A DNA stretch of 64,000 nt from a phage, in assembly GCA_024614665.1 (NCBI GenBank), contig GCA_024614665.1_4861.1, one strand, 5' to 3'. Below the pieces are notes generated by a model. The model was not told the DNA's origin and did not search any database. It saw nothing but the letters and a program-made list of their open reading frames with translations. Positions within the stretch are counted from its first letter, which is position 1. Each line of letters opens with the position of its first letter. This document shows positions 11,111-31,630 of this stretch, piece by piece. The position numbers and the translations under genes were made by a program.

Positions 11111-11130
11111 TTTAATACACCTTACGTAAA

Positions 11131-11142
11131 TAGTCGATTAAA
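11131..11142 (-). promoter_or_regulatory. conserved upstream motif AATCGACTAT (candidate promoter element)
   Basis: TTAATCGACTATTTACGTAAGG about 20 nt upstream of ATG at 11110; same motif recurs at three other gene starts. Confidence 0.3.
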
Positions 11143-11175
11143 AAATAAAACTGCGGACACCCCGAAGAGTGTCCG
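11140..11175 (-). terminator. intrinsic terminator
   Basis: cggacac/gtgtccg stem followed on minus strand by T-run. Confidence 0.45.
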
Positions 11176-11180
11176 TTTAA

Positions 11181-11723
11181 TTAGAAGTTGCCAATAGCGA
11201 TAGGCTGCATTGGCTCGACCACAATCAGTATTTCTTTCAGACGCGAAACGATATGCTCCCAGACTTGTGCTTCGAGGTGACGTAACATGGTGGTGAACTC
11301 GCCCATGTACATCTCTTTAAACTCGTCGCGATTGAGATGTTCCCACGCTTCTTTCAATGGGCCTGCTTCTGGACCAGACATCTTGATCATCATTTCGATG
11401 TCTTTCATCTCATCAAACGCCTTGCCGACTTTATCAATAACCTCGTCGGTCTTGAGTTCGAGTGAGAAACGACCCATCTTAGACTGCAGGAAGCCATCTT
11501 CAATATCTTCGTCGTTGTATTCGAAACACGCAATACGTTGCGCGAGTTGATGAACTTCATTTACCGCGATGTTGACGTACGCCGCAGAAATAAGTCCAGC
11601 GAGGTGCTGACGATCGATATTCTTTGGTATCAGATAGTCTTCACACTTACGCTTAAACTCGAACAACGCCGCTGGAAATATTTCACGAAATTCGTCATCG
11701 AGTAAATCAATGAATATTTTCAT
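11181..11723 (-). CDS. hypothetical protein (180 aa)
   Basis: Intact ORF; 4-nt overlap with upstream gene. Confidence 0.45.
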   Translation of the reverse strand: MKIFIDLLDDEFREIFPAALFEFKRKCEDYLIPKNIDRQHLAGLISAAYVNIAVNEVHQLAQRIACFEYNDEDIEDGFLQSKMGRFSLELKTDEVIDKVGKAFDEMKDIEMMIKMSGPEAGPLKEAWEHLNRDEFKEMYMGEFTTMLRHLEAQVWEHIVSRLKEILIVVEPMQPIAIGNF

Positions 11724-12259
11724 TCAACAGGTTTCCCATATTTCTCGCCGAGATACAGCAGTTCACGACGACAGATAGCCAGCACTTTCATTTCCGCTTC
11801 ACGATACAGCTTGGTGATTTTGTCAATGATTGGCTGGTCAACGATATCAGACCAAGTTACCGTATCCGTAACGTTCGATGATTGCCCGTTAATGACCACA
11901 GCAACGTATGTCTCGCCCAGGTTCTCTTGATGTAACCCCGCCAGAGATTCACCAACCTTATCAAAGGCTTCACTCAATAAGTCGGTGATTTGGTCCGTCC
12001 CTTCTACCAGTTCAAAACGATGGGGATAGTTCAGAATGTTACGCAGCCGCGTGAACATGCGTTCAATAAGCTGATTTACCATATCCTCAGTGTCACAGAT
12101 AGCCACATCTACGCCCGAACCTATTTCGTCAGACAAACGATTTTCGTGGACGACCAACGCGTCGTGAAGTTCAAATTCCACGTCTCGTTTTAATCCTAAC
12201 AGAATTTCATCTAGCTGACGTCTCGACTCCGACAGAGCGAAGTCTATTACGATTTGCAT
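11720..12259 (-). CDS. hypothetical protein (179 aa)
   Basis: Intact ORF in array. Confidence 0.45.
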   Translation of the reverse strand: MQIVIDFALSESRRQLDEILLGLKRDVEFELHDALVVHENRLSDEIGSGVDVAICDTEDMVNQLIERMFTRLRNILNYPHRFELVEGTDQITDLLSEAFDKVGESLAGLHQENLGETYVAVVINGQSSNVTDTVTWSDIVDQPIIDKITKLYREAEMKVLAICRRELLYLGEKYGKPVE

Positions 12260-12269
12260 CTAATACTCC

Positions 12270-12677
12270 TTAGAAGTTACTTACCTCGGGCTGCGTATAC
12301 CAGTATCTACACGCTACGAGATCCACAACGTTATATTTCAGTTGTCCGCCGTGCTGTGACGTATCTGCTAGTTCATGTGCAAGCTTGTACGCCAAATCTT
12401 CACGGTTGTCGAGGATAAGCAACACAACACGCTGCACCTCATTGAAGATATCTGGTTCACGTAAACAACTGTAGCGGTCGCCAAGATGCTTAATAACGCC
12501 TTTATAAACATCTCCTGGTACAGCAGTGCCATTTTCTGCCGCGTGGAATGAAACAAGCACGATTTTAATTAAAATCTCGACAACCATGGAGTATATCATT
12601 CCACGGTTGCCGTTAATTTCCACGTGCTTTAGATACTCTTGCAAATCCATCAGTGACTCGCTATACACCTTTAACAT
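12270..12677 (-). CDS. hypothetical protein (135 aa)
   Basis: Intact ORF in array. Confidence 0.4.
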   Translation of the reverse strand: MLKVYSESLMDLQEYLKHVEINGNRGMIYSMVVEILIKIVLVSFHAAENGTAVPGDVYKGVIKHLGDRYSCLREPDIFNEVQRVVLLILDNREDLAYKLAHELADTSQHGGQLKYNVVDLVACRYWYTQPEVSNF

Positions 12678-12687
12678 AGCGACCTCG

Positions 12688-13059
12688 CTATTTGTTCGCT
12701 GGCCATACCCCCGGTGAAGGTATTGCCGTTAATCCTCGCCACTTCTTGACGGTTATTTGATCCTGTCCAGCCACGCCGAATATGTCGAACCCCACAGTTG
12801 CCACCACATCGACTTCACGGTCAAGTGACGATTCGCTAAAGGGAGAGATATGCACAAACGACACCAGTTTGCCGCCGTTGATGGCCGTGTCGCGAACAAG
12901 ACGTGCCATCTTACGCAACTCTACGGTCACATCGCCGCGGATAGCCGTGCTTGCGGTAGTGGGATTTAACCATTGTTCATGGCCAGGTGCCACAATATAC
13001 AGAATAGCACCTTCTTTGTAATACTGTTTTACCATTGTTTCAAATTCATCTTGCGTCAT
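12688..13059 (-). CDS. hypothetical protein (123 aa)
   Basis: Intact ORF in array. Confidence 0.4.
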   Translation of the reverse strand: MTQDEFETMVKQYYKEGAILYIVAPGHEQWLNPTTASTAIRGDVTVELRKMARLVRDTAINGGKLVSFVHISPFSESSLDREVDVVATVGFDIFGVAGQDQITVKKWRGLTAIPSPGVWPANK

Positions 13060-13072
13060 GTTAAATACTCCT

Positions 13073-13807
13073 TCAGTAGTTTAGCTTCTCAGAGACTTCT
13101 TTACGGATGCGACACATCACCACCATCGCACCATTCGGAATTTGGCTCACGCAGTTATCCGTGTAAAACTTACCTTCACACAGATAAAAGTCCAGACACA
13201 TGGCATCGGTCAGCTCGTGCCACAGGGTGCCGAAACCATACTGCCAAGGGCCGGAATGAACGACATCGTAATCGCCATCAGTTATGCCAAATGCGGCAGT
13301 AGCGGAAGACCACAGTGTTGAGGAGGTGGTATAAGTGTCATACCAGTAACCGAGCAGTCGATGGTTACGACGTATCTCAGCTAACCGCTCGTACATTGGG
13401 ATGAATACGTCCTCCACTTGCGTGACAAAATCAGCCAGCATCAACTTTTCCGTGAACCACTCGATCCACGCAAAGATTTGTTCTTCAACGTCTTGCTGGC
13501 TTAACCCCGTGGCAGTAATGCCTTCTTCGTAGGAGTAACCTTCGTAGACGTCAACAACATTAATCTCTACATGTTCTAGCGTGAACAACCGTTCGGTGTT
13601 GATGCAGTCGTACATCTCTTGTAACCACGCAGTGAAGACTTCTATACAGACGTTGATGGCTGTATACTTGAACTCGTCACGCAGAGGATACCACTGTGGG
13701 TTATCCTTTAGTTCGTTCTTCGCGAACGCGGGCCAATGCTTTTCGAACAACGCTTCAAAGAACTGGGGCGTGAGGTTTAAAAGCACTGGCACTTCGACTT
13801 TAAGCAT
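13073..13807 (-). CDS. hypothetical protein (244 aa)
   Basis: AAGGAG RBS before ATG; AGATATTATCT motif about 40 nt upstream. Confidence 0.5.
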   Translation of the reverse strand: MLKVEVPVLLNLTPQFFEALFEKHWPAFAKNELKDNPQWYPLRDEFKYTAINVCIEVFTAWLQEMYDCINTERLFTLEHVEINVVDVYEGYSYEEGITATGLSQQDVEEQIFAWIEWFTEKLMLADFVTQVEDVFIPMYERLAEIRRNHRLLGYWYDTYTTSSTLWSSATAAFGITDGDYDVVHSGPWQYGFGTLWHELTDAMCLDFYLCEGKFYTDNCVSQIPNGAMVVMCRIRKEVSEKLNY

Positions 13808-13840
13808 CGTGAATAAATTCTCCTTAAGGTTACGTCCCTG

Positions 13841-13855
13841 TAGATAATATCTATC
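13841..13855 (-). promoter_or_regulatory. AGATATTATCT motif upstream of gene 13073..13807
   Basis: Same motif as at 5305, about 40 nt upstream of ATG. Confidence 0.3.
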
Positions 13856-13860
13856 TCAGA

Positions 13861-14601
13861 TTACTTTAAGAGATGCAAGAAGCGTGCTGCCTGTTCTGTA
13901 AAGTGAAAATACTCGATGGTATCAGGTTCGTCCGAGTGAATGTCATCCGGGTCCAGCAGGTAGCCCGAGATATCATCCGTTAAAACCCAAGCGTCCCCTT
14001 GCAGGAAAATACCCATCGGTTTTTCTACCACGGGCATCACTAAGTCCGAATAAGAGTTACCTTCTGCTACCCTTACAATGTCTACACACGGGTCAACAAT
14101 ATACAGGTTGCAGAGACTGCGATCTTTAAGACTGCGATGAAACATCGCTCGATCGTACCAAATAACCTGAGAACAATTATCTTCGTCACCCGCCACATCG
14201 ACCAACTCTGTCCAGAAACGATGTAAGAACCAGTTCAACGCACCGGTTATTAGCTCGTTCGGTTTCAGCATTCTAACGTGTTCGTCGTACAACTCTTCCA
14301 TTGTCCAGATTCGACACTGCTCACGATCGATTGTCGGTAGGGGAGGTATTTGCGGCGGGACTTGTTTAGGCATCGGTTCATCACATCTTGCATTGTAACG
14401 CGCAATTGTTTCGGTAACCAGCTCTGCCACAACATCACAAGCCGCTTCAAATCCCCACTTGTACAACACGTCGTAATCTTCCATGGGCGCAGCACCGAAC
14501 TCACGGTTCGTTGCCATCCACGACATCCATCCGTATTGCTCCACACAGTTAATCAGACTTTGTGTGTGGAGCGTGAGCGATTCACTCACGACTCGCAACA
14601 T
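13861..14601 (-). CDS. hypothetical protein (about 246 aa)
   Basis: Start moved to the ATG at 14601, directly after the stop of the upstream RNase H gene; the longer track ORF would overlap it. Confidence 0.45.
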   Translation of the reverse strand: MLRVVSESLTLHTQSLINCVEQYGWMSWMATNREFGAAPMEDYDVLYKWGFEAACDVVAELVTETIARYNARCDEPMPKQVPPQIPPLPTIDREQCRIWTMEELYDEHVRMLKPNELITGALNWFLHRFWTELVDVAGDEDNCSQVIWYDRAMFHRSLKDRSLCNLYIVDPCVDIVRVAEGNSYSDLVMPVVEKPMGIFLQGDAWVLTDDISGYLLDPDDIHSDEPDTIEYFHFTEQAARFLHLLK

Positions 14602-14602
14602 G

Positions 14603-16117
14603 TTACACCTCTTCTTCTCGCAGTATGCGACGGTTTGCGTAATACGCACACCACAACCCATGATACTCTTTACCGATATAGATTAAGAAGTAACGGATGT
14701 AGTATTTTTCAGGACGACACACCGCGATGTAATAACGGCCTTCCGGTTCTTTAATACGGTTGATTTCCGTACGCGATGGAATATCGATGCCGCGAGTCAA
14801 AATAACCGAGACAGGTCGTTTACCCATCGGAAAGTCAATCTTTAACGTTATTGACTTATCGACGCTACGGTAGTATTCCTTGACAGGTTTACCTTTGTCG
14901 TCGAATAGCAAGTCGGTAATGTCGTTTAAGACATAACCCTTTTCCTGATGCAGAACATCTCGCAACGTTGTAGCGAGTTCGTCACGAATATCCAGCGCAC
15001 GGTACGACAATAAGGGCGGGCGAAGCATTCTGGAGATGGCCAGGTCTTCAAAGAACCAGACATTGGAATCTTCTCCACTGAAATGCATCTTGTCTGCCGG
15101 TAATCCATCACCTGCCACATCAACGAACTTCTTACGTTTAACGAACTCATTGTTAACAACACCGATTGGATCATACTGCCGCATCTTCGGTGTATCTTTC
15201 CATGCCAGGGCGGCGTGGGTGTTTACAATCGTGTAGATGTTATCCCACGGTTGTTTAGTGAACATTACGGAAAAGTGTGCATCAGGAATCATTTTCCCAA
15301 TAAACACCAAGTCGTCCTTGTTCTTTGCATGGTTACCACCAAACATGTAATAGAAAGTTTCATCTTTCACTTTTACAGTAGGATGGTCCTCGTTCACCAA
15401 CGGATAGCAATATTTAACCGTACAAATCGGCGGATATGCCGCAAGGTTCATCCCAGCGGCGATGGGCTCGGGTTCCGCGGATGCAGGCAACTCATCTTTC
15501 GACCAGTACGGCTGATATGGAACGCCGTCGTTGGTCGCAGTGATAGCTGAACCTTTTCTAGCCAATTCGTCCGCCCGGTCGTTACCGTAGTGGCCGGAGT
15601 GTCCTTTGATTTTGATAACCTTAACACCCCGTCCTTCTTTTTTCATCTGCTGTTTGATTTCCCAGATACGAACAATAAGTTCTTTGTTCGCCAGCGGAGT
15701 ACCGTCAGCACGAACCCAACCACGTTTATGCCAGCCGTCTATCCACTCGTTAAAAGTGTTTACAACGTAACTGGCATCCACGTAGATGATATAGTTCTTC
15801 GCGCGGAAGGGTGCGTTCTCAAACAACGTGATGAAGGCGATTAACTCGCCCACATCTGAGTAGAACTCTTTCGGAACGGGAATAACGGCGTCGACAAATT
15901 GAACGGTGTCCGGCAACTCCGGACACTTCACATCCTGCGGCACTTTTTTGTATCCAACAGTGGTAATCCGTTCTGAAACACCCGGATGGCTATAAGCCTG
16001 ACTGTCTTCCAAATCTCCGTTGTTGAATAAATAACCATGAATACCAGCCCCCGAACCTTTCGGGGACTCAGTATGACTACCATCGGTATAAATAACCGCT
16101 ACGTCGACGTCTTTCAT
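14603..16117 (-). CDS. RNase H (type 1) domain protein with about 320-aa C-terminal extension
   Basis: N-terminal VIYTDGS and KIKGHSGHYGNDRADELARKG match RNase HI catalytic motifs; C-terminal two thirds have no recognisable motif. Confidence 0.65.
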   Translation of the reverse strand: MKDVDVAVIYTDGSHTESPKGSGAGIHGYLFNNGDLEDSQAYSHPGVSERITTVGYKKVPQDVKCPELPDTVQFVDAVIPVPKEFYSDVGELIAFITLFENAPFRAKNYIIYVDASYVVNTFNEWIDGWHKRGWVRADGTPLANKELIVRIWEIKQQMKKEGRGVKVIKIKGHSGHYGNDRADELARKGSAITATNDGVPYQPYWSKDELPASAEPEPIAAGMNLAAYPPICTVKYCYPLVNEDHPTVKVKDETFYYMFGGNHAKNKDDLVFIGKMIPDAHFSVMFTKQPWDNIYTIVNTHAALAWKDTPKMRQYDPIGVVNNEFVKRKKFVDVAGDGLPADKMHFSGEDSNVWFFEDLAISRMLRPPLLSYRALDIRDELATTLRDVLHQEKGYVLNDITDLLFDDKGKPVKEYYRSVDKSITLKIDFPMGKRPVSVILTRGIDIPSRTEINRIKEPEGRYYIAVCRPEKYYIRYFLIYIGKEYHGLWCAYYANRRILREEEV

Positions 16118-16836
16118 TATTCTCCTCGCAACTGCGGTGGAATGTATTCACCTGTGCACATTTCGCGGTGGGCTTCTAACATGCGCTCGAAGCCGTACGT
16201 ACGCGCGACCAGGGCCAAATGATAGATGCGTGCCGTAGAATACGCTTCCTTCGCAGCATCAAAGCTAGCGTTATGCTCGTACGCTTCTTTGCCACGGGTC
16301 CAATGGTGCGCTTCTGCGTGCCAGTTAGGTTCCAGGCCAAACGCATATGCAATACGCTCTGCAGTCCGGTCAGAGTCCAATATAGAAAACTTGCGGTACT
16401 TGCCCGGCGGGATATCGCACTGCGCGAACGCGTTCATCAGAATTGGAGCATCGAAATCGGGACCGCGCATGGTGATAACCATTTTCACGTTGCCCAGATC
16501 ATCCAACCATTTTTTGGCCGCCCACAGTGCTTCTGGCAGTGGCGTGGTCCCAGAAAACGCTTCAACACGTGCTTTCTCGCTCGGTGCGTATTCGGGGTCG
16601 CCTTTACCTTCCCAATAGCCGACCGTTTGTGGATCGATGTAGAAGATTTCTTTTGCTTTTGCATCGTTAGGGTCGATTTTGTGGTAACACGAACCGATCA
16701 TTTTCATTGTCGGAACATCGAATGCCACGTTTGCCAACGTTAAGATGTAGGCATCTGGACGTAAAGCCAGGGTCTCTAAGTCTGTACCAACAACCACGGT
16801 TGGTGTTAAAACAGGCAGAATTTTAGGATAGGTCAT
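16117..16836 (-). CDS. DEDDh-type 3'-5' exonuclease (DnaQ-like fold)
   Basis: VVGTDLETLAL (Exo I D-x-E) and HNASFDAAKEAY (H-x4-D Exo III) motifs; 1-nt overlap with RNase H gene. Confidence 0.55.
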   Translation of the reverse strand: MTYPKILPVLTPTVVVGTDLETLALRPDAYILTLANVAFDVPTMKMIGSCYHKIDPNDAKAKEIFYIDPQTVGYWEGKGDPEYAPSEKARVEAFSGTTPLPEALWAAKKWLDDLGNVKMVITMRGPDFDAPILMNAFAQCDIPPGKYRKFSILDSDRTAERIAYAFGLEPNWHAEAHHWTRGKEAYEHNASFDAAKEAYSTARIYHLALVARTYGFERMLEAHREMCTGEYIPPQLRGE

Positions 16837-16881
16837 TTCAACTCTCCACGAGATTATATATCACACTATTAACTATTAACG

Positions 16882-16918
16882 TAAAAAAGGAAATCCCTCT
16901 TACCCGAAGGTAAGAGGG
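16882..16918 (-). terminator. intrinsic terminator
   Basis: ccctcttacc-cgaa-ggtaagaggg stem followed on minus strand by T-run. Confidence 0.55.
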
Positions 16919-16924
16919 GAATTT

Positions 16925-17404
16925 TCATTGCACAAGGCAACTACTTCTGTGCCGTTCGTAGGCACGATTAAAAGACACTCTGTCTTCGCGATAGCCGCGA
17001 ATGAGAGACTTAATCTGTCGTGACAAATCACGACTAATGTCTTGAGGGCTACGAGAACCAGGGTCGAGATATATCCCAGTGGGTATATCATGAAGAGTGG
17101 GGCGAATAAACTCTTCACAAAGCGGTGCGGCCATCGGGGTGCGCCACCCCTTAGCTTCTGCGTAATTGTTCAACGACTTAGCGTACAGATAAACGTAATA
17201 AGCATAAGCGTTCACATCCGCAACAAACATTTTCCCTGCCAGCTTTTTCGCCTCAGGACTGTTCCCACCGACATAAACTGGTGGGTGTTCTAAAGGACGA
17301 AAAGGCCAATCTCCGGTTGAGGAGTAATCTGGGTCTACGTGACGGATGACCCCAGGGCATCCTGTCAACAATAGCACCAATATCGCCGCCAAAAATAACT
17401 TCAT
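16925..17404 (-). CDS. putative lipoprotein (159 aa)
   Basis: N-terminus MKLFLAAILVLLLTGC = signal peptide with lipobox LTGC; terminator hairpin downstream. Confidence 0.5.
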   Translation of the reverse strand: MKLFLAAILVLLLTGCPGVIRHVDPDYSSTGDWPFRPLEHPPVYVGGNSPEAKKLAGKMFVADVNAYAYYVYLYAKSLNNYAEAKGWRTPMAAPLCEEFIRPTLHDIPTGIYLDPGSRSPQDISRDLSRQIKSLIRGYREDRVSFNRAYERHRSSCLVQ

Positions 17405-17413
17405 GTATGCTCC

Positions 17414-17929: not shown

Positions 17930-17947
17930 CTCGGAGAGTTTTTAATT

Positions 17948-24338: not shown

Positions 24339-24363
24339 AATCGTAAGGAGTGCTAAAACAGGA

Positions 24364-24852: not shown

Positions 24853-25013
24853 GAGCTGAATTCCTAAGTGAGCTTTCACCTGCAATGAAAGCGTGTGACG
24901 AAGAATTGCGTTTGTGTTTTCTTAAGTTTACCGGTAAAGCTTAGCGGTGTATACCGCCACAGATGAAGACCAGTTCTCTATCGGAACTATGTCTTTAATC
25001 AGCAACGACGTTT

Positions 25014-25277
25014 TCAACGTCGTGATGCTGAGGTAACCTTCCGTCGCCACATTCGCTCATGGCGCTTCTGATTACCACGCCAGTCTTCCCCGACTGTACG
25101 TGAAACTGCAAAATCATCCGGCCCGCAGACTTCCGCGATGTCTGCTAAAAGGTTCTTTGAAGACCCTATAGCCATCCCCACGCTAGAAAGAACGATACGC
25201 CGGGTTGGCTCGGCCGCCCCTAAACCCACGACCACGGGATCAGAGACTGTTTCACTGCTACATGTTGTTTCTCCCAC
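25014..25277 (-). CDS. hypothetical protein (87 aa)
   Basis: Intact ORF. Confidence 0.3.
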   Translation of the reverse strand: MGETTCSSETVSDPVVVGLGAAEPTRRIVLSSVGMAIGSSKNLLADIAEVCGPDDFAVSRTVGEDWRGNQKRHERMWRRKVTSASRR

Positions 25278-25390
25278 TTCGTAATTACCCTCCTGTTAAA
25301 ACCAACCTTGCGTCAATGCAAGGATTGCGCCTAGGGCGTATGCGCCTGCTCCTAGTATCAGGCTACAGACGATACACCCAATCCATTTCA

Positions 25391-25522
25391 CTAAAATAGC
25401 CACGTTACTACAAACGCTCCGATTGCGCAAACGATAAACGTGATACCAACATCTGTCCAGGTGGCACCGTCATACGCACCCGTTGCAATCATCGCCGCGT
25501 TGACACTATTCACGACTGTCAT
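25391..25522 (-). CDS. small hydrophobic peptide (43 aa)
   Basis: Not in the ORF track (below its length cut-off); ATG...TAG; translation MTVVNSVNAAMIATGAYDGATWTDVGITFIVCAIGAFVVTWLF. Confidence 0.25.
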   Translation of the reverse strand: MTVVNSVNAAMIATGAYDGATWTDVGITFIVCAIGAFVVTWLF

Positions 25523-25709
25523 AAGCCGGGTCCCTTAAACGTGGGGGCTTGCTCCACAGATTACCGAAGTAAACCCCTTCTAAGAACACCAAAACAACTA
25601 ATCCCCAAAAGGCAGGCGTGGCACGAGACAAGAAAATACCCAGCAGCACCGCAGTGTGCATTACCACAACTGCCCAAAACTTTAAACGTCGCGGTTTACG
25701 TGTTGCCAT
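25506..25709 (-). CDS. small membrane protein (about 67 aa)
   Basis: Start at internal ATG (MATRKPRRLKFWAVVVMHTAVLLGIF) with AAAGGA upstream; one TM helix. Confidence 0.35.
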   Translation of the reverse strand: MATRKPRRLKFWAVVVMHTAVLLGIFLSRATPAFWGLVVLVFLEGVYFGNLWSKPPRLRDPAYDSRE

Positions 25710-25796
25710 GGAATGCCCATCCTTTCGTGCGGATAATCCAATCCCAGGCACCACGAATTAACCACAGCGCAATACCGGTTAGTACAATACCTTCGA

Positions 25797-25988
25797 TCAT
25801 GACCGTTCCCCTACATCTCGCCACTCACAACGTGTGTCGAACAGACGTTCTTTAAGAGCAGCAGCTAAATAAACAACCGCAGCGATAACCACTACGGTTG
25901 CACAAAAGGAGAGGTACAGTACCATCACAACAAACTGAAGGAACTGAAAACCCCACCAAGCCCATAAGCGCCAACCTTTATGATGCAT
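25797..25988 (-). CDS. small membrane protein (63 aa)
   Basis: Trp-rich hydrophobic N-terminus and second helix VVVIAAVVYLAAAL. Confidence 0.35.
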   Translation of the reverse strand: MHHKGWRLWAWWGFQFLQFVVMVLYLSFCATVVVIAAVVYLAAALKERLFDTRCEWRDVGERS

Positions 25989-28488
25989 ATTTGATTATTA
26001 CCCCTTCGTTATAAACCGGTGGAAGCGTTACACCTTCTGGCTCGACGACACAGTAGGTGGCTTCGTTAAGTTTAGAATGAACTTCCGCTTCATGCGAAAC
26101 GACCAGTAATTGAGAAAACTCTCCCGACAACGCCAACGATTTAATGAAGTTAACTAATCGGTTTTTGTGTTCTTCATCCATGCCTTCAGATGGTTCATCC
26201 AATAACAAAGGATAGTTTTGTAAACCAAGCGCTTTATACGCCGTTAAACGAAACATCATGTTAAAGATAATACGCTGTGCTTTTGAACCTTTCTTCACAT
26301 CCGGTACCAGTTCTACATGGTCTTTTAATCGCACAGGGAACGTGTAGTCCAGATCCCCGTCGGTTAGATCGCACGGAATAACCTGCATCGGATATGCCCA
26401 CACCATTTCGATATACCGATTCATTAAATCCATGATGCGGGTAATCGCAGCGTAGAAGTAACGTCTCAGTAAACCTTTTTCAGGAGAAACCGCATTAATA
26501 ATCAGTCTGGCATGGTGGTGTTCTTTGAGCAACTCAGCTTGCTCTTTTTCCAGTTCCGCTAAACGTGCAATAGCCCCTTCCATTTGACGAAACCGTTCAC
26601 GAGCTGAAGTATACGCATCGAGCTTCGCTTCGCGGCGGTTTAACAACTCACGAACTACGACGTTGTTAACGGAGATGTTCATTTCCGATACCAGATGTTC
26701 GTAGCCCTTTTGGAAACGTTCGATTGCTTCTTTGGTTTGTTGCAGTTGGGTGGTTTCGCGTTCCAGCTCATTGGCTTGTCTGCGGTATTCTATCAGTCGA
26801 CGGTTAGCCCCGTCTAGTTGTGAACGGATATGTTCAATTTTCTGGCTCAGAGCACCATCAACATTACCTACTGCGGCAACAGCCTCTTGCCATTCCCGTT
26901 CCGCTGTTGCAAGCTTCGCTGATTGACGCAGATACATCATGGCCGAATCTAACTCTTCGGTAAAGGCACGTGCAATGGCACCATATCGATCCCGCGCCGT
27001 GGTGAAGATATCCAGCTCCTGTAGTTTACGGAAAAACAAACCGACAACGGGATGATTGGAATACGACATGACAATTTCGCGAATCGTACGTAGGCTACGG
27101 ACGTCCTCTTCAATCTCTTTGCGGTCACGCAAAAGACTATCCATTTCGTCTTTCAGCTGTTTTTTCCAACCTTCATTATCGTTGATGGCCTTTTCAATTT
27201 CAGGTAACGACTTACGAATCCCAGGACGGAAACGGTGGTTACACTGTGGACAATCAACTTCTGCAGTTTCTAAGAAGTGTTGACGGTCGTGGTATAAACC
27301 GTGTAGCACATTCTCACAACGTTGCAACTTTTCAGATAGACCCGCAGAGGTTAAATCCATACCCTGTAAACGCTTCTCTAACGCTCCTAGGCGCTCTGTT
27401 GTCTTTAACTGGTCCAGATGCATGGACAACGGTAAATTCCAGTTACAGGCGTCGTTTAACGCGTTCTGAATGCTATCCACGTCGATGCGGGTACCTTCAA
27501 ACAGAGCCGGGAACATCCAGTTCTGTTGGAACGTTGCCAGTTCCTGTTTTAAGCTGTCGATTGTTTGTTTTAGACCGGTATGGTTACGCATCAGATACGC
27601 TTGACGCGACTCCTCATCCAGTAGCTGTGACAACTCTTTATTGTACATGTTGCATTCAGTTTCAGCGGAGGCAGCTTGCTCACGCCAGGCAACCACACGA
27701 CTTTGAAACTCGTTAATCAGTTCGTCAGAAGGCAGAACGCCATAACGTTCCATAATGAGTTTTACAGCCGGTTGCAACGAAGCAATGCGTTTCCGGATAC
27801 TGTCAACCGAAACAGCGTTATCTAAACCGGGCCTTGCTTCAATTGTGCGGTTTAATTCTTGAAGCTCAGCATCGAGTTCTTTCAAACGAACTTCTAAACG
27901 TGCACGATCTTCTTCATCGTCAACGACGCGCATTTTTGCTTCGCCGATTTTTCGTCCGGTGTGTTCGATGGCCCCGCTTAAACTGGAAGCGAGTTTACGC
28001 AAACGTCGATAGCAGCCAACAACGTACGTCAGATCAGATTCTGACATTAACGTAAACCATTTACGACGAACTTCGGTAGTGGCGTCAGTTAATAAGGTCT
28101 CACCATTAATTAACTCTTTGATTTCTTTGGTGATTCCGGTTAATTGCTCCACCATGGAGTTGTAAACTTTGGCGTTTACCGAGTCCACAATGGGGACGCC
28201 TTTGGTGATATTGAAAATACTACAAGACAAAGAAGACCCACGTCGCAGGACTTCAAACTTAAGACGGTCGTCCCCGACTAACGCGTAGTTAGTGTAAGAA
28301 CCACCTTCACGGAATTCAGATTTTGCTGGAGCTAAGGGGAGAAAAACAGATAGGAGGCTTGTTTTACCGCAACCATTCCCACCAAGGATAATGGTAACGG
28401 TTGATTTAAGGGTGAAATCAAACGTTTCGATTTCATGTAACCCCATGCCGGTAAATCCTTTCAAAATGATACGTTCGACCTTGAGCAT
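25978..28488 (-). CDS. SbcC/Rad50-like recombination ATPase (836 aa)
   Basis: N-terminal Walker A GGNGCGKTS; long central coiled coil with CPQC hook-like motif; C-terminal LLLDEPSEGMD Walker B and VVSHE. Confidence 0.7.
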   Translation of the reverse strand: MLKVERIILKGFTGMGLHEIETFDFTLKSTVTIILGGNGCGKTSLLSVFLPLAPAKSEFREGGSYTNYALVGDDRLKFEVLRRGSSLSCSIFNITKGVPIVDSVNAKVYNSMVEQLTGITKEIKELINGETLLTDATTEVRRKWFTLMSESDLTYVVGCYRRLRKLASSLSGAIEHTGRKIGEAKMRVVDDEEDRARLEVRLKELDAELQELNRTIEARPGLDNAVSVDSIRKRIASLQPAVKLIMERYGVLPSDELINEFQSRVVAWREQAASAETECNMYNKELSQLLDEESRQAYLMRNHTGLKQTIDSLKQELATFQQNWMFPALFEGTRIDVDSIQNALNDACNWNLPLSMHLDQLKTTERLGALEKRLQGMDLTSAGLSEKLQRCENVLHGLYHDRQHFLETAEVDCPQCNHRFRPGIRKSLPEIEKAINDNEGWKKQLKDEMDSLLRDRKEIEEDVRSLRTIREIVMSYSNHPVVGLFFRKLQELDIFTTARDRYGAIARAFTEELDSAMMYLRQSAKLATAEREWQEAVAAVGNVDGALSQKIEHIRSQLDGANRRLIEYRRQANELERETTQLQQTKEAIERFQKGYEHLVSEMNISVNNVVVRELLNRREAKLDAYTSARERFRQMEGAIARLAELEKEQAELLKEHHHARLIINAVSPEKGLLRRYFYAAITRIMDLMNRYIEMVWAYPMQVIPCDLTDGDLDYTFPVRLKDHVELVPDVKKGSKAQRIIFNMMFRLTAYKALGLQNYPLLLDEPSEGMDEEHKNRLVNFIKSLALSGEFSQLLVVSHEAEVHSKLNEATYCVVEPEGVTLPPVYNEGVIIKYAS

Positions 28489-28541
28489 GTTTGCCTTCTA
28501 ATGAGAAAGTATTAGTCGTTCATATCCAAAAGGTCATGCGT

Positions 28542-28573
28542 AAAAAAGAAGAAATGGAACCCCGAAGGGTTCC
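28542..28573 (-). terminator. intrinsic terminator
   Basis: ggaaccc-cgaa-gggttcc followed on minus strand by T-run. Confidence 0.5.
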
Positions 28574-28584
28574 AGAGAGGAGAG

Positions 28585-29211
28585 TTATTGCGGAATAAAC
28601 TTACGGTGTCCGAGTGATTCCCAAAAACTATCGGTGCGCTCTTTGGTTAATTCATACCACGCACGCCCGGCATCAGAATCGACAACCTTTAACGTTTCAG
28701 TAAGCAGGAATTTGAACAGTTCAGCGCTACGACCGGGTGCTACACCGTCGAGATATATCGGAATTAAATAACCGGTTTTGATTTCTTCGTACGGTTGCGA
28801 TTGGTGCTGACCAACAACCCAGGCGTCAGCCGCGCTACCGACCAAAGTGGTGTTTACAGTTAACTCATCAGAAATCCAGTTAACGGTATCAGCCATTATT
28901 GAATCGCCATTGACGTAGAAGAAAACTAAACGTTTAGGTTGCTCCACCGAACCGGCCAAATCTAATGCAGTAGTTCCGGTGAAGATCGTATTATTGGGAT
29001 TACGTTCTGCAATAGGTAGAGCAAACCACGCTTCGAGCTGTTCCCAGCTACGCGGCAGTGCTTCTTTAAACCACTTCACCAATCGCGGGTATTCCAGAAA
29101 CCCTTCTACCTCTTCTTCCATCAGATTGATACGCAGTTTGGTATCCTGACGATTCGCTTTCTGACATGTCACCATGTCATCGATGAAACGAATCAGGGTA
29201 ATTTCGTTCAT
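28585..29211 (-). CDS. hypothetical protein (208 aa)
   Basis: Intact ORF followed by terminator hairpin; no phosphoesterase motifs. Confidence 0.45.
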   Translation of the reverse strand: MNEITLIRFIDDMVTCQKANRQDTKLRINLMEEEVEGFLEYPRLVKWFKEALPRSWEQLEAWFALPIAERNPNNTIFTGTTALDLAGSVEQPKRLVFFYVNGDSIMADTVNWISDELTVNTTLVGSAADAWVVGQHQSQPYEEIKTGYLIPIYLDGVAPGRSAELFKFLLTETLKVVDSDAGRAWYELTKERTDSFWESLGHRKFIPQ

Positions 29212-29228
29212 GTTTAATCCTTCTTCAA

Positions 29229-29256
29229 CAAAAAAAGAAGGTAGCCCGTAGGCTAC
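29229..29256 (-). terminator. intrinsic terminator
   Basis: ggtagcc-cgta-ggctacc followed on minus strand by T-run. Confidence 0.5.
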
Positions 29257-29265
29257 CTCTCGTAT

Positions 29266-29766
29266 TTACAGCCCCATATGCATAAGGGAAATGATAGGGA
29301 CTTTTCGGCCACGTATCATTGCATACGGTTCGTACATTTGTGCGTTAGTTTCGAATAACTCACAGGCCGGAATACGATCGCCGGTAGAGAGTTGTAAGAC
29401 TTCGATTTGGTCGCCCCAGAAGTTATTCACTAATACGTGGTCGACAGTGTTGTCTTCACGACCTTCAGGGGTTTTGCAATAAGTGGCGGCATCGTACCAA
29501 CCTTTGCGGTATACTTCATAACCCGCGTGAAGCATCCGGTAGTACGGACGCAGTTGTGGGGCATTCAACGCAGCATCTAGCCACTCGCTGTGAATGCTGT
29601 TAATCAACACGGTCGCTTCTTCTGGCCACTCGCTGCGGTTTAGGGTTAACTCGCCTAACAGCTTTAACTTCCAGCCAGTGGAAAGAATAGCGCGGGTACG
29701 TTCTGGATTGACGTTCATCTGAGTAAAGAAAGTAGAACGAGTATCGTCAAGAATGTTCATGTTCAT
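29266..29766 (-). CDS. hypothetical protein (about 166 aa)
   Basis: Start at ATG (MNMNILDD) with AAGGA RBS, preceded by AATCGACTAT motif and hairpin. Confidence 0.45.
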   Translation of the reverse strand: MNMNILDDTRSTFFTQMNVNPERTRAILSTGWKLKLLGELTLNRSEWPEEATVLINSIHSEWLDAALNAPQLRPYYRMLHAGYEVYRKGWYDAATYCKTPEGREDNTVDHVLVNNFWGDQIEVLQLSTGDRIPACELFETNAQMYEPYAMIRGRKVPIISLMHMGL

Positions 29767-29785
29767 TTGCTTAGTCCTTACGAGT

Positions 29786-29796
29786 AATAGTCGATT
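29786..29796 (-). promoter_or_regulatory. conserved upstream motif AATCGACTAT (candidate promoter element)
   Basis: TTAATCGACTATTACTCGTAAGG upstream of ATG at 29766, nearly identical to the 11131 copy. Confidence 0.3.
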
Positions 29797-29895
29797 AAAA
29801 AGGACCCTGCGGCTATGTGTTGGGGATATCACCGCAGGGCCAAAGTGAGATGGGTCGTCATCTCACGTTATAACATCTGTCTGAAAACTTTTCGG

Positions 29896-30279
29896 TTACT
29901 GGTCGAGCGCTACTGAACCACGCACCACTCCTTGCTGTTCAATAACCAGGAGGCGTTGTTTGGTTTTCGTATTGTAAGCGAGCGACGCGCGAAGCGTCGG
30001 GTCGCACGTTATTGTCTCTACTGGCACAATCTCTTGTGCCTTTGAGTTCAACAAAAAGTAGTAACCTGCCGGACAAGTTTCCTCGCCCTTTGCGTGGACC
30101 AGGATGTACTCGTCGTGCCGGCTGACTTCTTCACATCTACCATCATCCCCAGTACAGACTTCGAACGAAGGCGGGTTGTACTGATACGGTGTGCCTGGTA
30201 GTAAATCTTCTACGCTAGTTGTAGCTGAAGCAGAAGCGGTAAAGAACACCGCCACGATAATACCCATAAATCCACGCAT
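29896..30279 (-). CDS. secreted small protein with conserved Cys (127 aa)
   Basis: Signal peptide MRGFMGIIVAVFFTASASA; 4 Cys in mature part. Confidence 0.45.
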   Translation of the reverse strand: MRGFMGIIVAVFFTASASATTSVEDLLPGTPYQYNPPSFEVCTGDDGRCEEVSRHDEYILVHAKGEETCPAGYYFLLNSKAQEIVPVETITCDPTLRASLAYNTKTKQRLLVIEQQGVVRGSVALDQ

Positions 30280-30292
30280 GTTGTTTCCTTAC

Positions 30293-30703
30293 TTAAAAGT
30301 CGAGTTTATTGATGCCTACGTTTTTCTTAATCGTAGGGTCATACATGATAACCGTCAGGGCATTATCACCTGGGTCGCGAGTAAACTCAGCAACGGCTTC
30401 ACCACTGCAGGCCTGGTTATCATTATAGTTCATGGTTTCGGCTTGCCCGGTTGCCATGTTAATAACCCCGTATTCCGGGTCGCCACATGCGACGCCGCCC
30501 ATCGTTTTCACTAACAGGTAACGGTTGTTATCGGACATCGCAACGATCTGGCAGCTACCGCCTTGTACGTCAGAGTTCTGGCACCAGAACTGGCCGCCGT
30601 ATTCGTGATCGTTAACAACTTTTGGTAACTCGATACTTCCAGCACGAGCGAAGAAGCTAATGGCCAGAGTAGCAAGTAAAACTGGTAATAAAAAATGTTT
30701 CAT
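30293..30703 (-). CDS. secreted small protein with conserved Cys (136 aa)
   Basis: Signal peptide MKHFLLPVLLATLAISFFARA; about 5 Cys in mature part. Confidence 0.45.
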   Translation of the reverse strand: MKHFLLPVLLATLAISFFARAGSIELPKVVNDHEYGGQFWCQNSDVQGGSCQIVAMSDNNRYLLVKTMGGVACGDPEYGVINMATGQAETMNYNDNQACSGEAVAEFTRDPGDNALTVIMYDPTIKKNVGINKLDF

Positions 30704-30725
30704 AATAGCACCTCAATTTTTTGAG

Positions 30726-31217
30726 TTATTCTGAATAGTCGATTGTTTTGATAGTTTCCATACCGTAGTACATAGCGATGGAGGCCAGAGTTTTGGTATC
30801 CGGTCGCTGTACAAAACCGGCCCTGAAATCTTTGCTGCAAATTTTCTCCACTGATAGTTCATCACGATTAGGGATAAGCCATAACGCGTCACCGTTGTGA
30901 CGGTCGACTGCACCCCACCAACCACCTGGGCAATCTTTATCGCCCGGACGGTGTACGATAGCGACACGTCCGTTGAAGGATATGTCAACTACACGACACT
31001 GTTTCTTAAGCAGCTTACGCGCATTGCACCAGAACGGCTTATCATTAAGATTGATGGTGCGGGTATATGCTGGAATGCTGCCGTTAATACTGCCCTGGAA
31101 CCCGCTGAATTCGTCAGCGCGTGCCTTAGAAATCCGTAGCCCAACAACAAGTGCCATCAACAGCACAGTAAAAAGCACCACTTTGGCCAAGTGGCGATTA
31201 ACGTTATTGCATTTCAT
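30726..31217 (-). CDS. secreted or membrane-anchored small protein (about 163 aa)
   Basis: Start at ATG with GGAG RBS; hydrophobic N-terminus HLAKVVLFTVLLMALVVGL; 4 Cys. Confidence 0.4.
   Translation of the reverse strand: MKCNNVNRHLAKVVLFTVLLMALVVGLRISKARADEFSGFQGSINGSIPAYTRTINLNDKPFWCNARKLLKKQCRVVDISFNGRVAIVHRPGDKDCPGGWWGAVDRHNGDALWLIPNRDELSVEKICSKDFRAGFVQRPDTKTLASIAMYYGMETIKTIDYSE
30734..30744 (-). promoter_or_regulatory. conserved upstream motif AATCGACTAT (candidate promoter element)
   Basis: CAATCGACTATTCAG about 30 nt upstream of ATG at 30703, inside 3' end of upstream gene. Confidence 0.25.
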
Positions 31218-31605
31218 TTTTAATATCTCCACGATTAAGGGTGATGCGACCGACGAGCACATCGTTGTGATAAAAACTCACAGCAACCAGATCTGGCAAT
31301 TCCAACGGCGATACACTGACCGAGGTGACTTTTGGTTGATTGCACGATATGTCGATTAATCGCTGATACATTTTCAATTTCTTATCAGCGATAACCAGCC
31401 CTGTGCAGTTCTTACCGTCCGTCAGTCTGTAGATTTGTAACTGTTCGACCTCACGCATCAGTTCCGGTTTTTCATTCGGTGCAATGGCATAATCCGAATC
31501 AGCTGATGTGTATTCAGTCACGTCTGGCTTATCGAAAGCATAAGTTGCTGCAATACCACATGCGGCCAGAACTACTACTGCTTGTAAGAACTTCTTGATA
31601 GTCAT
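31204..31605 (-). CDS. putative lipoprotein (133 aa)
   Basis: MTIKKFLQAVVVLAACG = signal peptide + lipobox LAAC; AATCGACTAT motif 12 nt upstream. Confidence 0.45.
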   Translation of the reverse strand: MTIKKFLQAVVVLAACGIAATYAFDKPDVTEYTSADSDYAIAPNEKPELMREVEQLQIYRLTDGKNCTGLVIADKKLKMYQRLIDISCNQPKVTSVSVSPLELPDLVAVSFYHNDVLVGRITLNRGDIKNEMQ

Positions 31606-31614
31606 GTTTTGCTC

Positions 31615-31625
31615 TATAGTCGATT
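31615..31625 (-). promoter_or_regulatory. conserved upstream motif AATCGACTAT (candidate promoter element)
   Basis: CCAATCGACTATAGAG 12 nt upstream of ATG at 31605, just after terminator hairpin. Confidence 0.25.
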
Positions 31626-31630
31626 GGTTT

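What the first reader, a model, noticed from the sequence alone, without database searches (positions are those of the whole stretch)
11128..31628. Recurrent AATCGACTAT element immediately upstream of several minus-strand genes, usually just after a terminator hairpin
Seen: on the coding (minus) strand TTAATCGACTATTTACGTAAGG (before ATG 11110), TTAATCGACTATTACTCGTAAGG (before ATG 29766), CAATCGACTATTCAG (before ATG 30703) and CCAATCGACTATAGAG (before ATG 31605). In three cases the order is hairpin, T-run, motif, RBS, ATG. Established knowledge: the core loosely resembles T7-type single-subunit RNAP promoters (TAATACGACTCACTATAG), but could equally be a host-RNAP promoter variant or an RNA processing site. 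Inference: a phage-specific promoter or re-initiation signal class.
Basis: partly seen in the sequence, partly recalled or inferred. Interest (0 to 1): 0.55.

Follow-up and report, generated by a model that had tools for sequence, protein, structure and literature searches.

The report
Conserved leader motif of jumbo-phage early genes
A real, strongly non-random 10-base signal (A-W-TCGAC-Y-AT) sits about 20 bases in front of a dozen early genes of this SPN3US-type giant Salmonella phage and is kept in a related Erwinia phage genus. It is not a T7-type promoter. It is either an undescribed secondary promoter for the phage's own RNA polymerase or an RNA control site in the early mRNA leaders.

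Summary
AATCGACTAT occurs four times in the window, always on the coding (minus) strand, against 0.18 expected. The window is a SPN3US-like jumbo phage (Seoulvirus), which transcribes with two multisubunit RNA polymerases.

In the whole SPN3US genome the family A[A/T]TCGAC[T/C]AT has about 12 gene-proximal copies, all sense-strand. Nine of 15 matches start 15-45 nt upstream of a start codon (p=5e-13).

Two of the "terminators" are leader attenuator hairpins inside early transcription units.

The motif is kept at orthologous genes in SPAsTU and in Erskinevirus (phiEaH2, Asesino) although the flanks have diverged. It changes to TTGACTAT or is lost in more distant genera. One bearer is the homologue of PHIKZ068, the sigma-like subunit of the non-virion polymerase.

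No T7-like polymerase is encoded, and there is no sigma-70 fit, TATG or Rfam match.

Best reading (about 0.45): a tandem or internal promoter for a phage RNA polymerase. Close rival (about 0.33): an RNA-level operator or processing site in early leaders. Only 5'-end mapping can decide between them.

The parts
31616..31625 (-). Motif copy AATCGACTAT, 10 nt before the ATG at 31605 (orthologue of SPN3US 165783-166184).
   Evidence: Orthologous copies are AATCGACTGT (SPN3US), AATCGACCAT (SPAsTU) and ATTCGACTAT (phiEaH2). The spacer is 10 nt in all although its sequence has diverged.
31681..31706 (-). Early (vRNAP-type) promoter, subclass TCTCAGATATATATTACCTAGGTGAG.
   Evidence: Six near-identical copies in SPN3US are all followed by the motif. 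A 49-nt stretch is 92% conserved in Erwinia Machinavirus phages whose flanks do not align.
31664..31681 (-). Hairpin at the predicted 5' end of the early transcript (GAGTTAAGAGATTAACTC).
   Evidence: An equivalent hairpin of different sequence is present in every cassette of this promoter subclass.
31631..31659 (-). Terminator-like hairpin plus T-run inside the leader, between the early promoter and the motif.
   Evidence: Premature termination in 5' UTRs has been mapped in phiKZ and 201phi2-1 (PMC10914365, PMC11512511).
30735..30744 (-). Motif copy 31 nt before the ATG at 30703, inside the 3' end of the upstream gene. Membership is doubtful.
   Evidence: Present in SPN3US (166644). Absent at the orthologous place in SPAsTU and phiEaH2. 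The spacing is atypical and there is no hairpin.
29787..29796 (-). Motif copy 20 nt before the ATG at 29766 (orthologue of SPN3US 167622-168122).
   Evidence: Conserved in SPAsTU and phiEaH2. In phiEaH2 a 10-nt insertion separates it from the T-run, so it travels with the Shine-Dalgarno sequence and not with the hairpin. The Huxley version is TTGACTAT.
29797..29841 (-). Long hairpin with conserved loop TCCCCAACAC, followed by the invariant GGTCCTTTTT (leader attenuator or short RNA).
   Evidence: One search shows compensatory stem changes across window, SPAsTU, phiEaH2 and Huxley. Coordinates.
29845..29887 (-). Early-like promoter TTTTCAGACAGATGTTATAACGTGAG (29862-29887) overlapping the first leader hairpin (29845-29866).
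11130..11139 (-). Motif copy 19 nt before the ATG at 11110.
   Evidence: Only the motif and a Shine-Dalgarno sequence lie between a strong terminator and the gene.
11140..11175 (-). Intrinsic terminator of the upstream operon (CGGACACTCTTCGGGGTGTCCG plus a T-run).
10187..11110 (-). Gene of 307 aa served by the 11139 copy. It is absent from SPN3US (an insertion) and matches phrog_6160, of unknown function.
   Evidence: (no counterpart between SPN3US 186719 and 186782).
29266..29766 (-). Gene of 166 aa served by the 29796 copy (phrog_8115, unknown function).
30293..30703 (-). Gene of 136 aa downstream of the 30744 copy.
31204..31605 (-). Gene of 133 aa served by the 31625 copy (phrog_9424, unknown function).

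Best explanation
The motif A-[A/T]-T-C-G-A-C-[T/C]-A-T (usually followed by T-A) is a cis-acting expression signal of one set of early genes in Seoulvirus and Erskinevirus jumbo phages.

Most likely it is a compact secondary promoter for one of the phage's own multisubunit RNA polymerases. It sits in tandem, just downstream of the vRNAP early promoter or inside early operons.

If transcription starts at the conserved pyrimidine-purine step right after it, the conserved block covers about -11 to -2. That is the region where the sigma-like subunit of jumbo-phage nvRNAPs engages and opens DNA. The mRNA would then carry a leader of roughly 19 nt holding only the Shine-Dalgarno sequence.

Such a promoter would keep these genes expressed after the injected vRNAP phase. 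It would also bypass the attenuator hairpins in their early leaders. The genes include the PHIKZ068-type sigma-like nvRNAP subunit.

Shown: the existence of the motif, its statistics, its position, its conservation, and the exclusion of the T7, sigma-70 and TATG types.

Inferred: that it acts on DNA as a promoter, which polymerase reads it, and where the start site is.
For: Statistics and shape:
- 4 copies in the window against 0.18 expected.
- In SPN3US, 8 exact copies, all on the gene strand.
- 9 of 15 degenerate matches start 15-45 nt upstream of a start codon, p=5e-13.
- The block is sharply bounded at 10 nt, with invariant C-G-A-C and terminal T. The next two positions are T (15 of 20) then A or G (15 of 20), a pyrimidine-purine step typical of a start site.

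Conservation:
- The motif is kept at orthologous genes in SPAsTU, phiEaH2 and Asesino while the flanks diverge.
- Its sequence drifts to TTGACTAT in Machinavirus, as expected for a signal co-evolving with a phage-encoded reader.

Contexts where a promoter makes sense:
- It is the only element between a strong terminator and the inserted gene 10187-11110.
- It follows leader terminators at 29796 and 31625.
- It occurs at internal cistrons (SPN3US 224197; phiEaH2 38744 and 234633).
- Spacing to the Shine-Dalgarno sequence varies from 1 to 11 nt between genes but is fixed within orthologues. This fits a promoter better than a ribosome-positioning element.

Precedents:
- In AR9, continuously expressed genes have tandem early and late promoters, and late promoters sit inside early operons. 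These genes include g226, the PHIKZ068 homologue (PMC5312081).
- phiKZ gene 54 has an early primary and a middle secondary start site (PMC8244752).
- Here the PHIKZ068 homologue (PDB 7OGP_B, E=2e-6) carries early promoter plus motif in tandem, identically in Erskinevirus.
- nvRNAP promoter recognition takes place within -11 to +1 with no -35 element (PMC7598289, PMC12809450).
Against: - No 5'-end data exist for any Seoulvirus that I could find.
- Nine of 14 strong early promoters in SPN3US are followed by the motif, including all copies of one promoter subclass. The motif is therefore certainly present in early mRNAs, and this equally suits an RNA-level role.
- A separate, statistically solid family, TTTAC[G/A]-N12-15-[T/C]ATG, already looks like the nvRNAP middle/late promoter of phiKZ. 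It also occurs in tandem with early promoters; the HTH gene has that family, an early promoter and the motif. A further promoter class is therefore not needed to explain late expression.
- The core is G+C-rich (CGAC), unlike known jumbo-phage promoter elements.
- The position after TAT is never G, so it is not the phiKZ TATG type.
- Its resemblance to the early promoter core is not significant (346 of 5000 shuffles).
Confidence: 0.45

Rival explanations
1. RNA-level element. The motif works in the single-stranded leader of early mRNAs, between a 5' stabilising hairpin and the Shine-Dalgarno sequence. It would be the binding site of a phage-encoded factor: either a translational repressor or activator that times early protein synthesis, or an endoribonuclease that trims or inactivates early messages.
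For: - It lies downstream of the predicted early start site in 9 of 12 SPN3US copies, and in every cassette of the TTTCAGATATATATTACYTAGGTGAG subclass.
- It is always on the sense strand and close to the Shine-Dalgarno sequence.
- It is predicted to be mostly unpaired next to stable hairpins; unpaired probability is 0.7-0.95 in most copies, range 0.36-0.95.
- The hairpins keep their structure but not their sequence, while the motif keeps its sequence. That is the signature of recognition by a trans-acting factor.
- It also occurs between cistrons of early operons.
- T4 RegA, RegB and gp43 operators are precedents for leader sites next to the Shine-Dalgarno sequence (my own knowledge).
Against: - No candidate reader has been identified.
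- No complementary RNA exists in the phage noncoding regions, and there is no meaningful complementarity to 16S rRNA.
- The distance to the Shine-Dalgarno sequence varies from 1 to 20 nt.
- No Rfam family matches.
- It does not explain why the motif is the sole signal after a strong terminator at 11139.
Confidence: 0.33
2. DNA operator. The motif is the binding site of a phage transcription regulator, for example the Cro/C1-type HTH protein whose own gene carries it. That regulator would block or modulate transcription from the upstream early promoters.
For: - The HTH gene (SPN3US 94310-94675; Pfam HTH_3) has the motif in both SPN3US and phiEaH2, which would fit autoregulation.
- TAAT-CGACT-ATTA has weak dyad symmetry (direct reading of the sequence).
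- The block is sharply bounded at 10 nt.
Against: - All 20 or so copies have one orientation relative to the gene.
- The motif keeps its distance to the start codon, not to the promoter; promoter-to-motif distance ranges from 4 to about 70 nt.
- phiEaH2 copies carry an extra T that breaks the dyad spacing.
- HTH homologues occur in genera where the motif is changed or absent upstream of the same gene.
Confidence: 0.08
3. T7-type single-subunit RNAP promoter, or a host sigma-70 promoter variant.
For: - Loose resemblance of TAAT-CGACT-AT-TA to TAATACGACTCACTATA.
- TCGACT matches 4 of 6 positions of the -35 consensus, and one copy (11137) scores 9 of 12 as a sigma-70 site.
Against: - No T7-like RNAP is encoded in the window, SPN3US or phiEaH2.
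- The conserved block is too short and lacks the T7 spacing.
- The other three window copies give no sigma-70 match. The one that does places the -10 on the start codon.
- Development of the related phage phiKZ, which encodes the same two multisubunit RNAPs, is independent of host RNAP (PMC7598289). This has not been tested for SPN3US.
Confidence: 0.03
4. Passenger sequence. The motif has no function of its own. It recurs because a promoter-hairpin-leader cassette was copied around the genome, like the PeSL cassettes of T4-type phages.
For: - The leaders of two genes are identical over 27 nt, AATCGACTATTAATCTAAAGGAGTATT.
- Cassette-like modules flank variable small genes, and the window-specific inserted gene carries one.
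Against: - Within cassettes the hairpins differ completely while promoter and motif are kept.
- Orthologous copies survive in another genus despite diverged flanks.
- Information content drops to zero right outside the 10-12 nt block.
Confidence: 0.05

Closest known systems
AR9 tandem early and late promoters, with late promoter 5'-AACA-N6-T-A/G(+1) read by nvRNAP through its sigma-like subunit gp226 (PMC5312081, PMC7598289)
   Same: - A short promoter confined to about -11 to +1 with no -35 element.
- Placed downstream of vRNAP early promoters or inside early operons to give continuous expression.
- The sigma-like subunit gene itself is among the genes served.
- If the start site is the purine two bases after the motif, A-A/T falls at -11/-10 and T-A at -1/+1, as in AR9.
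   Different: - Positions -9/-8 are T-C, not C-A, and six further positions are conserved here.
- AR9 needs uracil DNA and template-strand recognition.
- SPN3US is a phiKZ-type (Chimalliviridae-like) phage with thymine DNA.
- The start site is not mapped.
phiKZ promoter classes: early AT-rich block at -10; middle TACT / AT-rich block at about -22 to -24; late TATG with G=+1 (PMC7598289, PMC8244752, PMC12809450)
   Same: - The same polymerase system is encoded: vRNAP and nvRNAP genes are annotated, and a PHIKZ068 homologue is present.
- The phage has clear counterparts of the early class and of a TTTACG...TATG class.
   Different: - The motif matches none of the three classes. It has a G+C-rich core, lies downstream of the early block, and is never followed by G after TAT.
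Leader terminators and 5'UTR-derived short RNAs of phiKZ and 201phi2-1 (PMC10914365, PMC11512511)
   Same: - The architecture of early promoter, then structured leader ending in a T-run, then gene is present at 29887-29797 and 31706-31631.
   Different: - Those papers describe no conserved linear motif between the leader terminator and the Shine-Dalgarno sequence.
Translational operators and RNase sites in T4 early mRNA leaders (RegA, RegB, gp43 operator); from my own knowledge
   Same: - A short sequence-specific site in the single-stranded leader, next to a hairpin and the Shine-Dalgarno sequence, shared by a set of early genes.
   Different: - The sequences are unrelated: RegB cuts GGAG, and RegA sites overlap the AUG.
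- No homologous regulator has been identified here.
PeSL (promoter-early stem-loop) cassettes of T4-type phages; from my own knowledge
   Same: - Repeated modules of early promoter plus stem-loop in front of small variable early genes.
   Different: - PeSL cassettes use host sigma-70 promoters and have no extra conserved linear motif.
- A role in recombination was not tested here.

Membership tests
T7-type single-subunit RNAP promoter | A cognate single-subunit RNAP is encoded by the phage. | tested here: not met
   tblastn of T7 RNAP against the window, SPN3US and phiEaH2 gives a best E of 0.69. The SPN3US 'polymerase' at 73754-75532 has no Pfam hit.
T7-type single-subunit RNAP promoter | About 17-23 bp of conserved sequence with fixed spacing from an AT-rich -17 region through the -8/-11 specificity bases to the TATA at the start site. 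| tested here: not met
   Information content is confined to 10-12 nt. The T7 'CAC(T)' spacer and one base of the AT-rich part are missing.
phiKZ-type early (vRNAP) promoter | An AT-rich conserved block of about 10-13 nt centred near -10, in front of early operons. | tested here: not met
   That block is a different sequence (cAGATAGATATTAYCTnnGTGA) lying 4-70 nt upstream of the motif. Similarity of the motif to it is not significant.
phiKZ-type late (nvRNAP) promoter | TATG with G as the start site; all four bases are required. | tested here: not met
   The base after TAT is T, C or A in 20 of 20 copies and never G.
phiKZ-type middle promoter | An A/T-rich run plus a TAC(T) block about 22-24 nt upstream of the start site. 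| tested here: inconclusive
   A separate family, TTTAC[G/A]-N12-15-YATG, fits this description. The motif could fit only if transcription started at the start codon, and the start sites are unmapped.
AR9-type late promoter | AACA at -11 to -8, T-A/G at -1/+1, and uracil-containing template. | not testable with these tools
   There is a partial positional parallel: A-W at the 5' end and T-A after the motif. The start site and DNA modification are unknown, and -9/-8 differ.
Host sigma-70 promoter | -35 and -10 hexamers with a 16-18 nt spacer, giving a start site upstream of the gene. | tested here: not met
   Only 1 of 4 window copies overlaps a 9/12 match, and its -10 lies on the start codon.
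Intrinsic terminator (as part of the element) | A G+C-rich hairpin followed by a T-run directly before the motif. | tested here: inconclusive
   Present at 3 of 4 window copies. Most genome-wide copies follow a non-terminator 5' hairpin or no hairpin, and phiEaH2 has a 10-nt insertion between T-run and motif.
Leader RNA operator or processing site | Lies within the transcript, single-stranded, close to the ribosome-binding site. | tested here: met
   Downstream of the predicted early start site in 9 of 12 copies. Mostly unpaired in folds. Lies 1-11 nt from the Shine-Dalgarno sequence in most copies.
Leader RNA operator or processing site | A specific trans-acting protein, RNase or RNA that recognises it. 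| not testable with these tools
   No complementary phage RNA. No rRNA complementarity beyond chance. No Rfam family.

The most novel reading that the evidence does not exclude
The motif defines a fourth, so far undescribed promoter class of chimallivirus-type jumbo phages. A phage multisubunit RNAP would read it through contacts in the -11 to -2 region. It would be used, among other things, for self-sustaining expression of the polymerase's own sigma-like subunit and to bypass attenuators in early leaders. An equally new alternative: a sequence-specific RNA operator through which the phage switches a regulon of immediate-early mRNAs on or off after transcription.
Probability: 0.4. Interest if true: 0.65.

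Novelty: new variant of a known kind. Interest (0 to 1): 0.5.

Why it matters
How the non-canonical RNA polymerases of jumbo phages choose their start sites is only partly understood.
- The phiKZ middle promoters are not transcribed in vitro.
- The four-base late signal cannot explain specificity.
- A fifth to a third of mapped start sites have no motif (32 of 149 in phiKZ, 24 of 67 in 201phi2-1; PMC7598289, PMC10914365, PMC11512511).

A compact 10-base element that is information-rich and conserved across genera gives a concrete, easily testable handle on this problem. It sits in front of the sigma-like nvRNAP subunit gene and about ten other early genes of SPN3US, which is a genetically tractable model.

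If it is a promoter, it reveals a new specificity of these enzymes. If it is an RNA site, it reveals post-transcriptional control of immediate-early genes, of which nothing is known in this phage group.

It would also be a useful expression part for engineering these phages.

Tried and rejected
- **T7-like polymerase:** tblastn of T7 RNAP and Pfam on the annotated 'polymerase' found none.
- **Host sigma-70 promoter:** the scan gave no consistent match.
- **Pairing with rRNA:** the best 16S match is 6 contiguous pairs including G-U, with the wrong geometry. A 9-nt match in 23S is within chance.
- **A complementary phage RNA:** none in noncoding DNA. The output was dominated by the reverse strand of the motif sites themselves.
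- **Known RNA families:** no Rfam match at gathering score or at E<=1.
- **IMG/VR pattern scan** with AATCGACTAT-N4-9-AAGGA returned only scattered, apparently chance hits and wasted one scan.
- **The search for related loci** with the 166-aa protein found only SPN3US itself.
- **Literature search** for the motif string gave only FOXO3 primer matches. A search for TATATTAC gave nothing relevant. The Ceyssens 2014 phiKZ paper is not held.
- **Similarity of the motif to the early promoter core:** 9 of 11 with one gap, but 7% of shuffles do as well.
- **A motif-like AATCACTATTA upstream of SPN3US 15768:** not conserved in phiEaH2, so dropped. That 617-aa protein has no PDB sequence match.
- **A Klebsiella phage Miami sequence (AAATCGATATTACC) resembling both motif and early promoter:** it occurs at a single place per record, so no conclusion can be drawn.
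- **Phylogenetic profile of the HTH protein against the motif:** no tight correlation.

Full report
**Identity of the window**

Megablast places the window in the SPN3US group of jumbo Salmonella phages (Seoulvirus). It is about 98% identical to SaP7 and SPN3US, in reverse orientation relative to the SPN3US record.

These phages encode a virion (vRNAP) and a non-virion (nvRNAP) multisubunit RNA polymerase. The split beta and beta' subunit genes are annotated in SPN3US. The biology is reviewed in PMC7598289. I fetched the whole SPN3US genome and the whole Erwinia phage phiEaH2 genome (Erskinevirus) to put the finding in context.

**Check of the observation**

- AATCGACTAT occurs exactly four times, at 11139, 29796, 30744 and 31625 (5' ends on the minus strand).
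- Expectation is 0.18, and no shuffle reached four.
- One-mismatch hits add nothing beyond chance.
- Hairpin plus T-run precedes three copies.
- The 30744 copy lies in the last codons of the upstream gene.

**The family genome-wide**

- SPN3US has eight exact copies, all on the strand of the genes.
- One-mismatch variants sit in the same context at 4477, 56335, 114030, 165763 and 224197.
- Of 15 matches to [AT][AT]TCGAC[TC]AT, nine start 15-45 nt upstream of an annotated start codon on the sense strand. That zone holds 1.7% of positions, giving p=5e-13.
- Aligning 20 copies from SPN3US, the window and phiEaH2 shows a sharply bounded block. A, T, C, G, A, C, A and T are invariant or nearly so at eight positions. 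Position 2 is A or T and position 8 is T or C.
- The block is followed by T (15 of 20) and then a purine (15 of 20). There is no information upstream of it.
- The distance from motif start to ATG is 28-33 nt in 15 of 20 copies. Gene-specific exceptions are 20, 24 and 41 nt. The 20-nt and 28-nt exceptions are kept exactly between orthologues although the spacer sequence has changed.

Sixty to ninety bases upstream of the 31625 and 29796 copies lies a second, longer conserved element.

- The consensus is cAGATAGATATTAYCTnnGTGA, with a near-identical subclass TTTCAGATATATATTACYTAGGTGAG.
- It is AT-rich and about 13 nt long. In a strict-pattern scan, 13 of 18 matches end within 80 nt upstream of a same-strand start.
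- It is conserved even in Erwinia phages whose flanks do not align.
- It answers the published description of jumbo-phage early promoters read by vRNAP: a conserved AT-rich block centred near -10 that can be located bioinformatically in each such phage (PMC7598289).
- Nine of 14 strong matches in SPN3US are followed, before the first ATG, by the AATCGAC motif. That includes every copy of the subclass.
- Between promoter and motif there is nearly always a hairpin at the predicted 5' end of the RNA. Its sequence differs completely from cassette to cassette.
- At 31625 and 29796 there is in addition a terminator-like hairpin with a T-run.
- For the 29796 leader, both hairpins show compensatory changes in SPAsTU, phiEaH2 and Huxley, with a conserved loop and an invariant GGTCCTTTTT.
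- Terminators inside 5' UTRs that yield abundant short RNAs have been mapped in phiKZ and 201phi2-1 (PMC10914365, PMC11512511).

Only the one at 11175-11140 ends a preceding operon.

**A third motif family**

- TTTAC[G/A]-N12-15-[T/C]ATG, usually right after a terminator T-run, is also highly enriched upstream of genes: 12 of 22 strict matches, p=2e-11.
- It precedes genes for DNA polymerase, dTMP kinase, SbcC and RNase H-type proteins, among others.
- It combines the two features reported for phiKZ nvRNAP promoters: an A/T-rich TAC(T) block near -22 and TATG at the start site (PMC8244752, PMC12809450).
- It occurs in tandem with early promoters, including upstream of the HTH gene that also has the AATCGAC motif.

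The phage thus already shows recognisable counterparts of the known promoter classes. AATCGACTAT is something additional.

**Conservation**

- At the orthologue of the 31605 gene, SPAsTU has AATCGACCAT and phiEaH2 has ATTCGACTAT, each exactly 10 nt from the ATG.
- At the orthologue of the 29766 gene the motif is intact in SPAsTU and phiEaH2. In phiEaH2 a 10-nt insertion lies between the T-run and the motif, so the motif travels with the ribosome-binding site and not with the hairpin.
- phiEaH2 has eight good copies. These include the orthologues of the HTH gene, of SPN3US 4501 and of SPN3US 23886. Asesino has the two copies expected in the 41-kb segment examined.
- In Machinavirus (Huxley) the corresponding slots hold TTGACTAT or TTGACTTT, or nothing recognisable.
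- Kwan and CR5 lack the motif upstream of the 23886 orthologue.
- The 30744 copy is not conserved in SPAsTU or phiEaH2 and may be non-functional.

**The genes served**

- Most are small proteins of unknown function.
- One is a Cro/C1-type HTH protein.
- One is an HD-domain protein (annotation).
- One is the homologue of PHIKZ068, the sigma-like fifth subunit of nvRNAP. tblastn reaches phiKZ-like phages, where it is annotated as an nvRNAP subunit, and phmmer hits PDB 7OGP chain B at E=2e-6.
- The gene at 10187-11110 is absent from SPN3US. It sits after a strong terminator with only the motif and a Shine-Dalgarno sequence in front.

**Exclusions**

- No T7-like RNAP, and the block is too short, so it is not a T7-type promoter.
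- No consistent sigma-70 fit.
- Not the phiKZ TATG type, since G never follows TAT.
- No Rfam family.
- No rRNA or phage-RNA complement.
- The motif string is not discussed in the searchable literature.

**Mechanism**

Two readings survive.

*(a) A secondary promoter for a phage RNAP.* In favour:
- A short, strand-specific, sharply bounded element with a pyrimidine-purine step at its 3' edge.
- It lies where a start site would give a 10-20 nt leader.
- It is the sole signal after terminators and at internal cistrons.
- Its spacing to the Shine-Dalgarno sequence is variable.
- It drifts between genera.
- There are direct precedents. AR9 uses tandem early plus late promoters and late promoters inside early operons for continuously expressed genes, including its PHIKZ068 homologue (PMC5312081). 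phiKZ gene 54 has an early and a middle start site (PMC8244752).
- nvRNAP recognition confined to -11 to +1 (PMC7598289, PMC12809450) matches the extent of the block.

*(b) An RNA-level site in early leaders.* In favour:
- The motif is certainly transcribed from the early promoters.
- It is part of every cassette of one promoter subclass.
- It is predicted to be single-stranded next to structure-only conserved hairpins.
- The phage already has a plausible nvRNAP promoter family that is used in tandem with early promoters.

I put (a) at about 0.45 and (b) at about 0.33. A DNA operator for the HTH protein gets about 0.08, because the strict orientation and the gene-anchored rather than promoter-anchored spacing argue against it. 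T7 or sigma-70 types get about 0.03, and a functionless cassette passenger about 0.05. No computation available here can separate (a) from (b). 5'-end mapping would.

**Verdict**

- The finding is real and biologically meaningful.
The T7 analogy and the "re-initiation after a terminator" picture are not.
- The element matches no described promoter class of jumbo phages and no described leader element. I therefore class it as a new variant of a known kind, of moderate interest.

Noticed in passing
window 29797-29887 (-): Conserved structured leader: an early-like promoter, a first hairpin, then a long hairpin with conserved loop TCCCCAACAC and the invariant GGTCCTTTTT. Stem changes are compensatory in SPAsTU, phiEaH2 and Huxley. 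It is probably a 5'-UTR attenuator or short non-coding RNA, of the type mapped in phiKZ and 201phi2-1. No Rfam match.
   Followed up: partly
window 645-621, 9335-9311 and 24314-24290 (all -); SPN3US genome-wide: A motif family TTTAC[G/A]-N12-15-[T/C]ATG lies directly after terminator T-runs. In SPN3US, 12 of 22 strict matches lie within 80 nt upstream of starts (p=2e-11), in front of genes of replication and nucleotide-metabolism type. These are probably the nvRNAP (phiKZ middle/late-like) promoters of this phage group.
   Followed up: partly
window 5320-5308, 13856-13844, 29882-29870, 31702-31690 and 35470-35458 (all -): Copies of the early (vRNAP-type) promoter family cAGATAGATATTAYCTnnGTGA. 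The subclass TTTCAGATATATATTACYTAGGTGAG is about 92% conserved in Erwinia Machinavirus phages whose flanks do not align.
   Followed up: partly
window 10187-11110 (-): A 307-aa gene (phrog_6160, unknown function) is absent from SPN3US. It is inserted between the orthologues of SPN3US 186177-186719 and 186782-187537, after a strong terminator, and carries its own motif plus Shine-Dalgarno sequence.
   Followed up: partly
L003 (SPN3US) 23859/23886-25493, outside the window: Homologue of PHIKZ068, the sigma-like nvRNAP subunit (PDB 7OGP_B, E=2e-6). An ATG 27 nt upstream of the annotated start is in frame, and phiEaH2 annotates the corresponding ATG as the start, so it may be the true start. Early promoter and motif lie directly in front, identically in phiEaH2 and Asesino.
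   Followed up: partly
L007 (SPAsTU) 2738-2977: A small extra ORF is inserted between the early promoter plus leader terminator and the motif-bearing gene. Its TAA stop codon overlaps the first bases of the motif. The same overlap occurs at SPN3US 114783-114785.
   Followed up: no
SPN3US 93795 and 222528 (L004, L002), outside the window: Two exact AATCGACTAT copies lie inside coding regions (the dTMP kinase gene and the 222301-222600 gene), far from a start codon. phiEaH2 has no exact copy at the corresponding loci. They are probably chance or decayed copies.
   Followed up: partly
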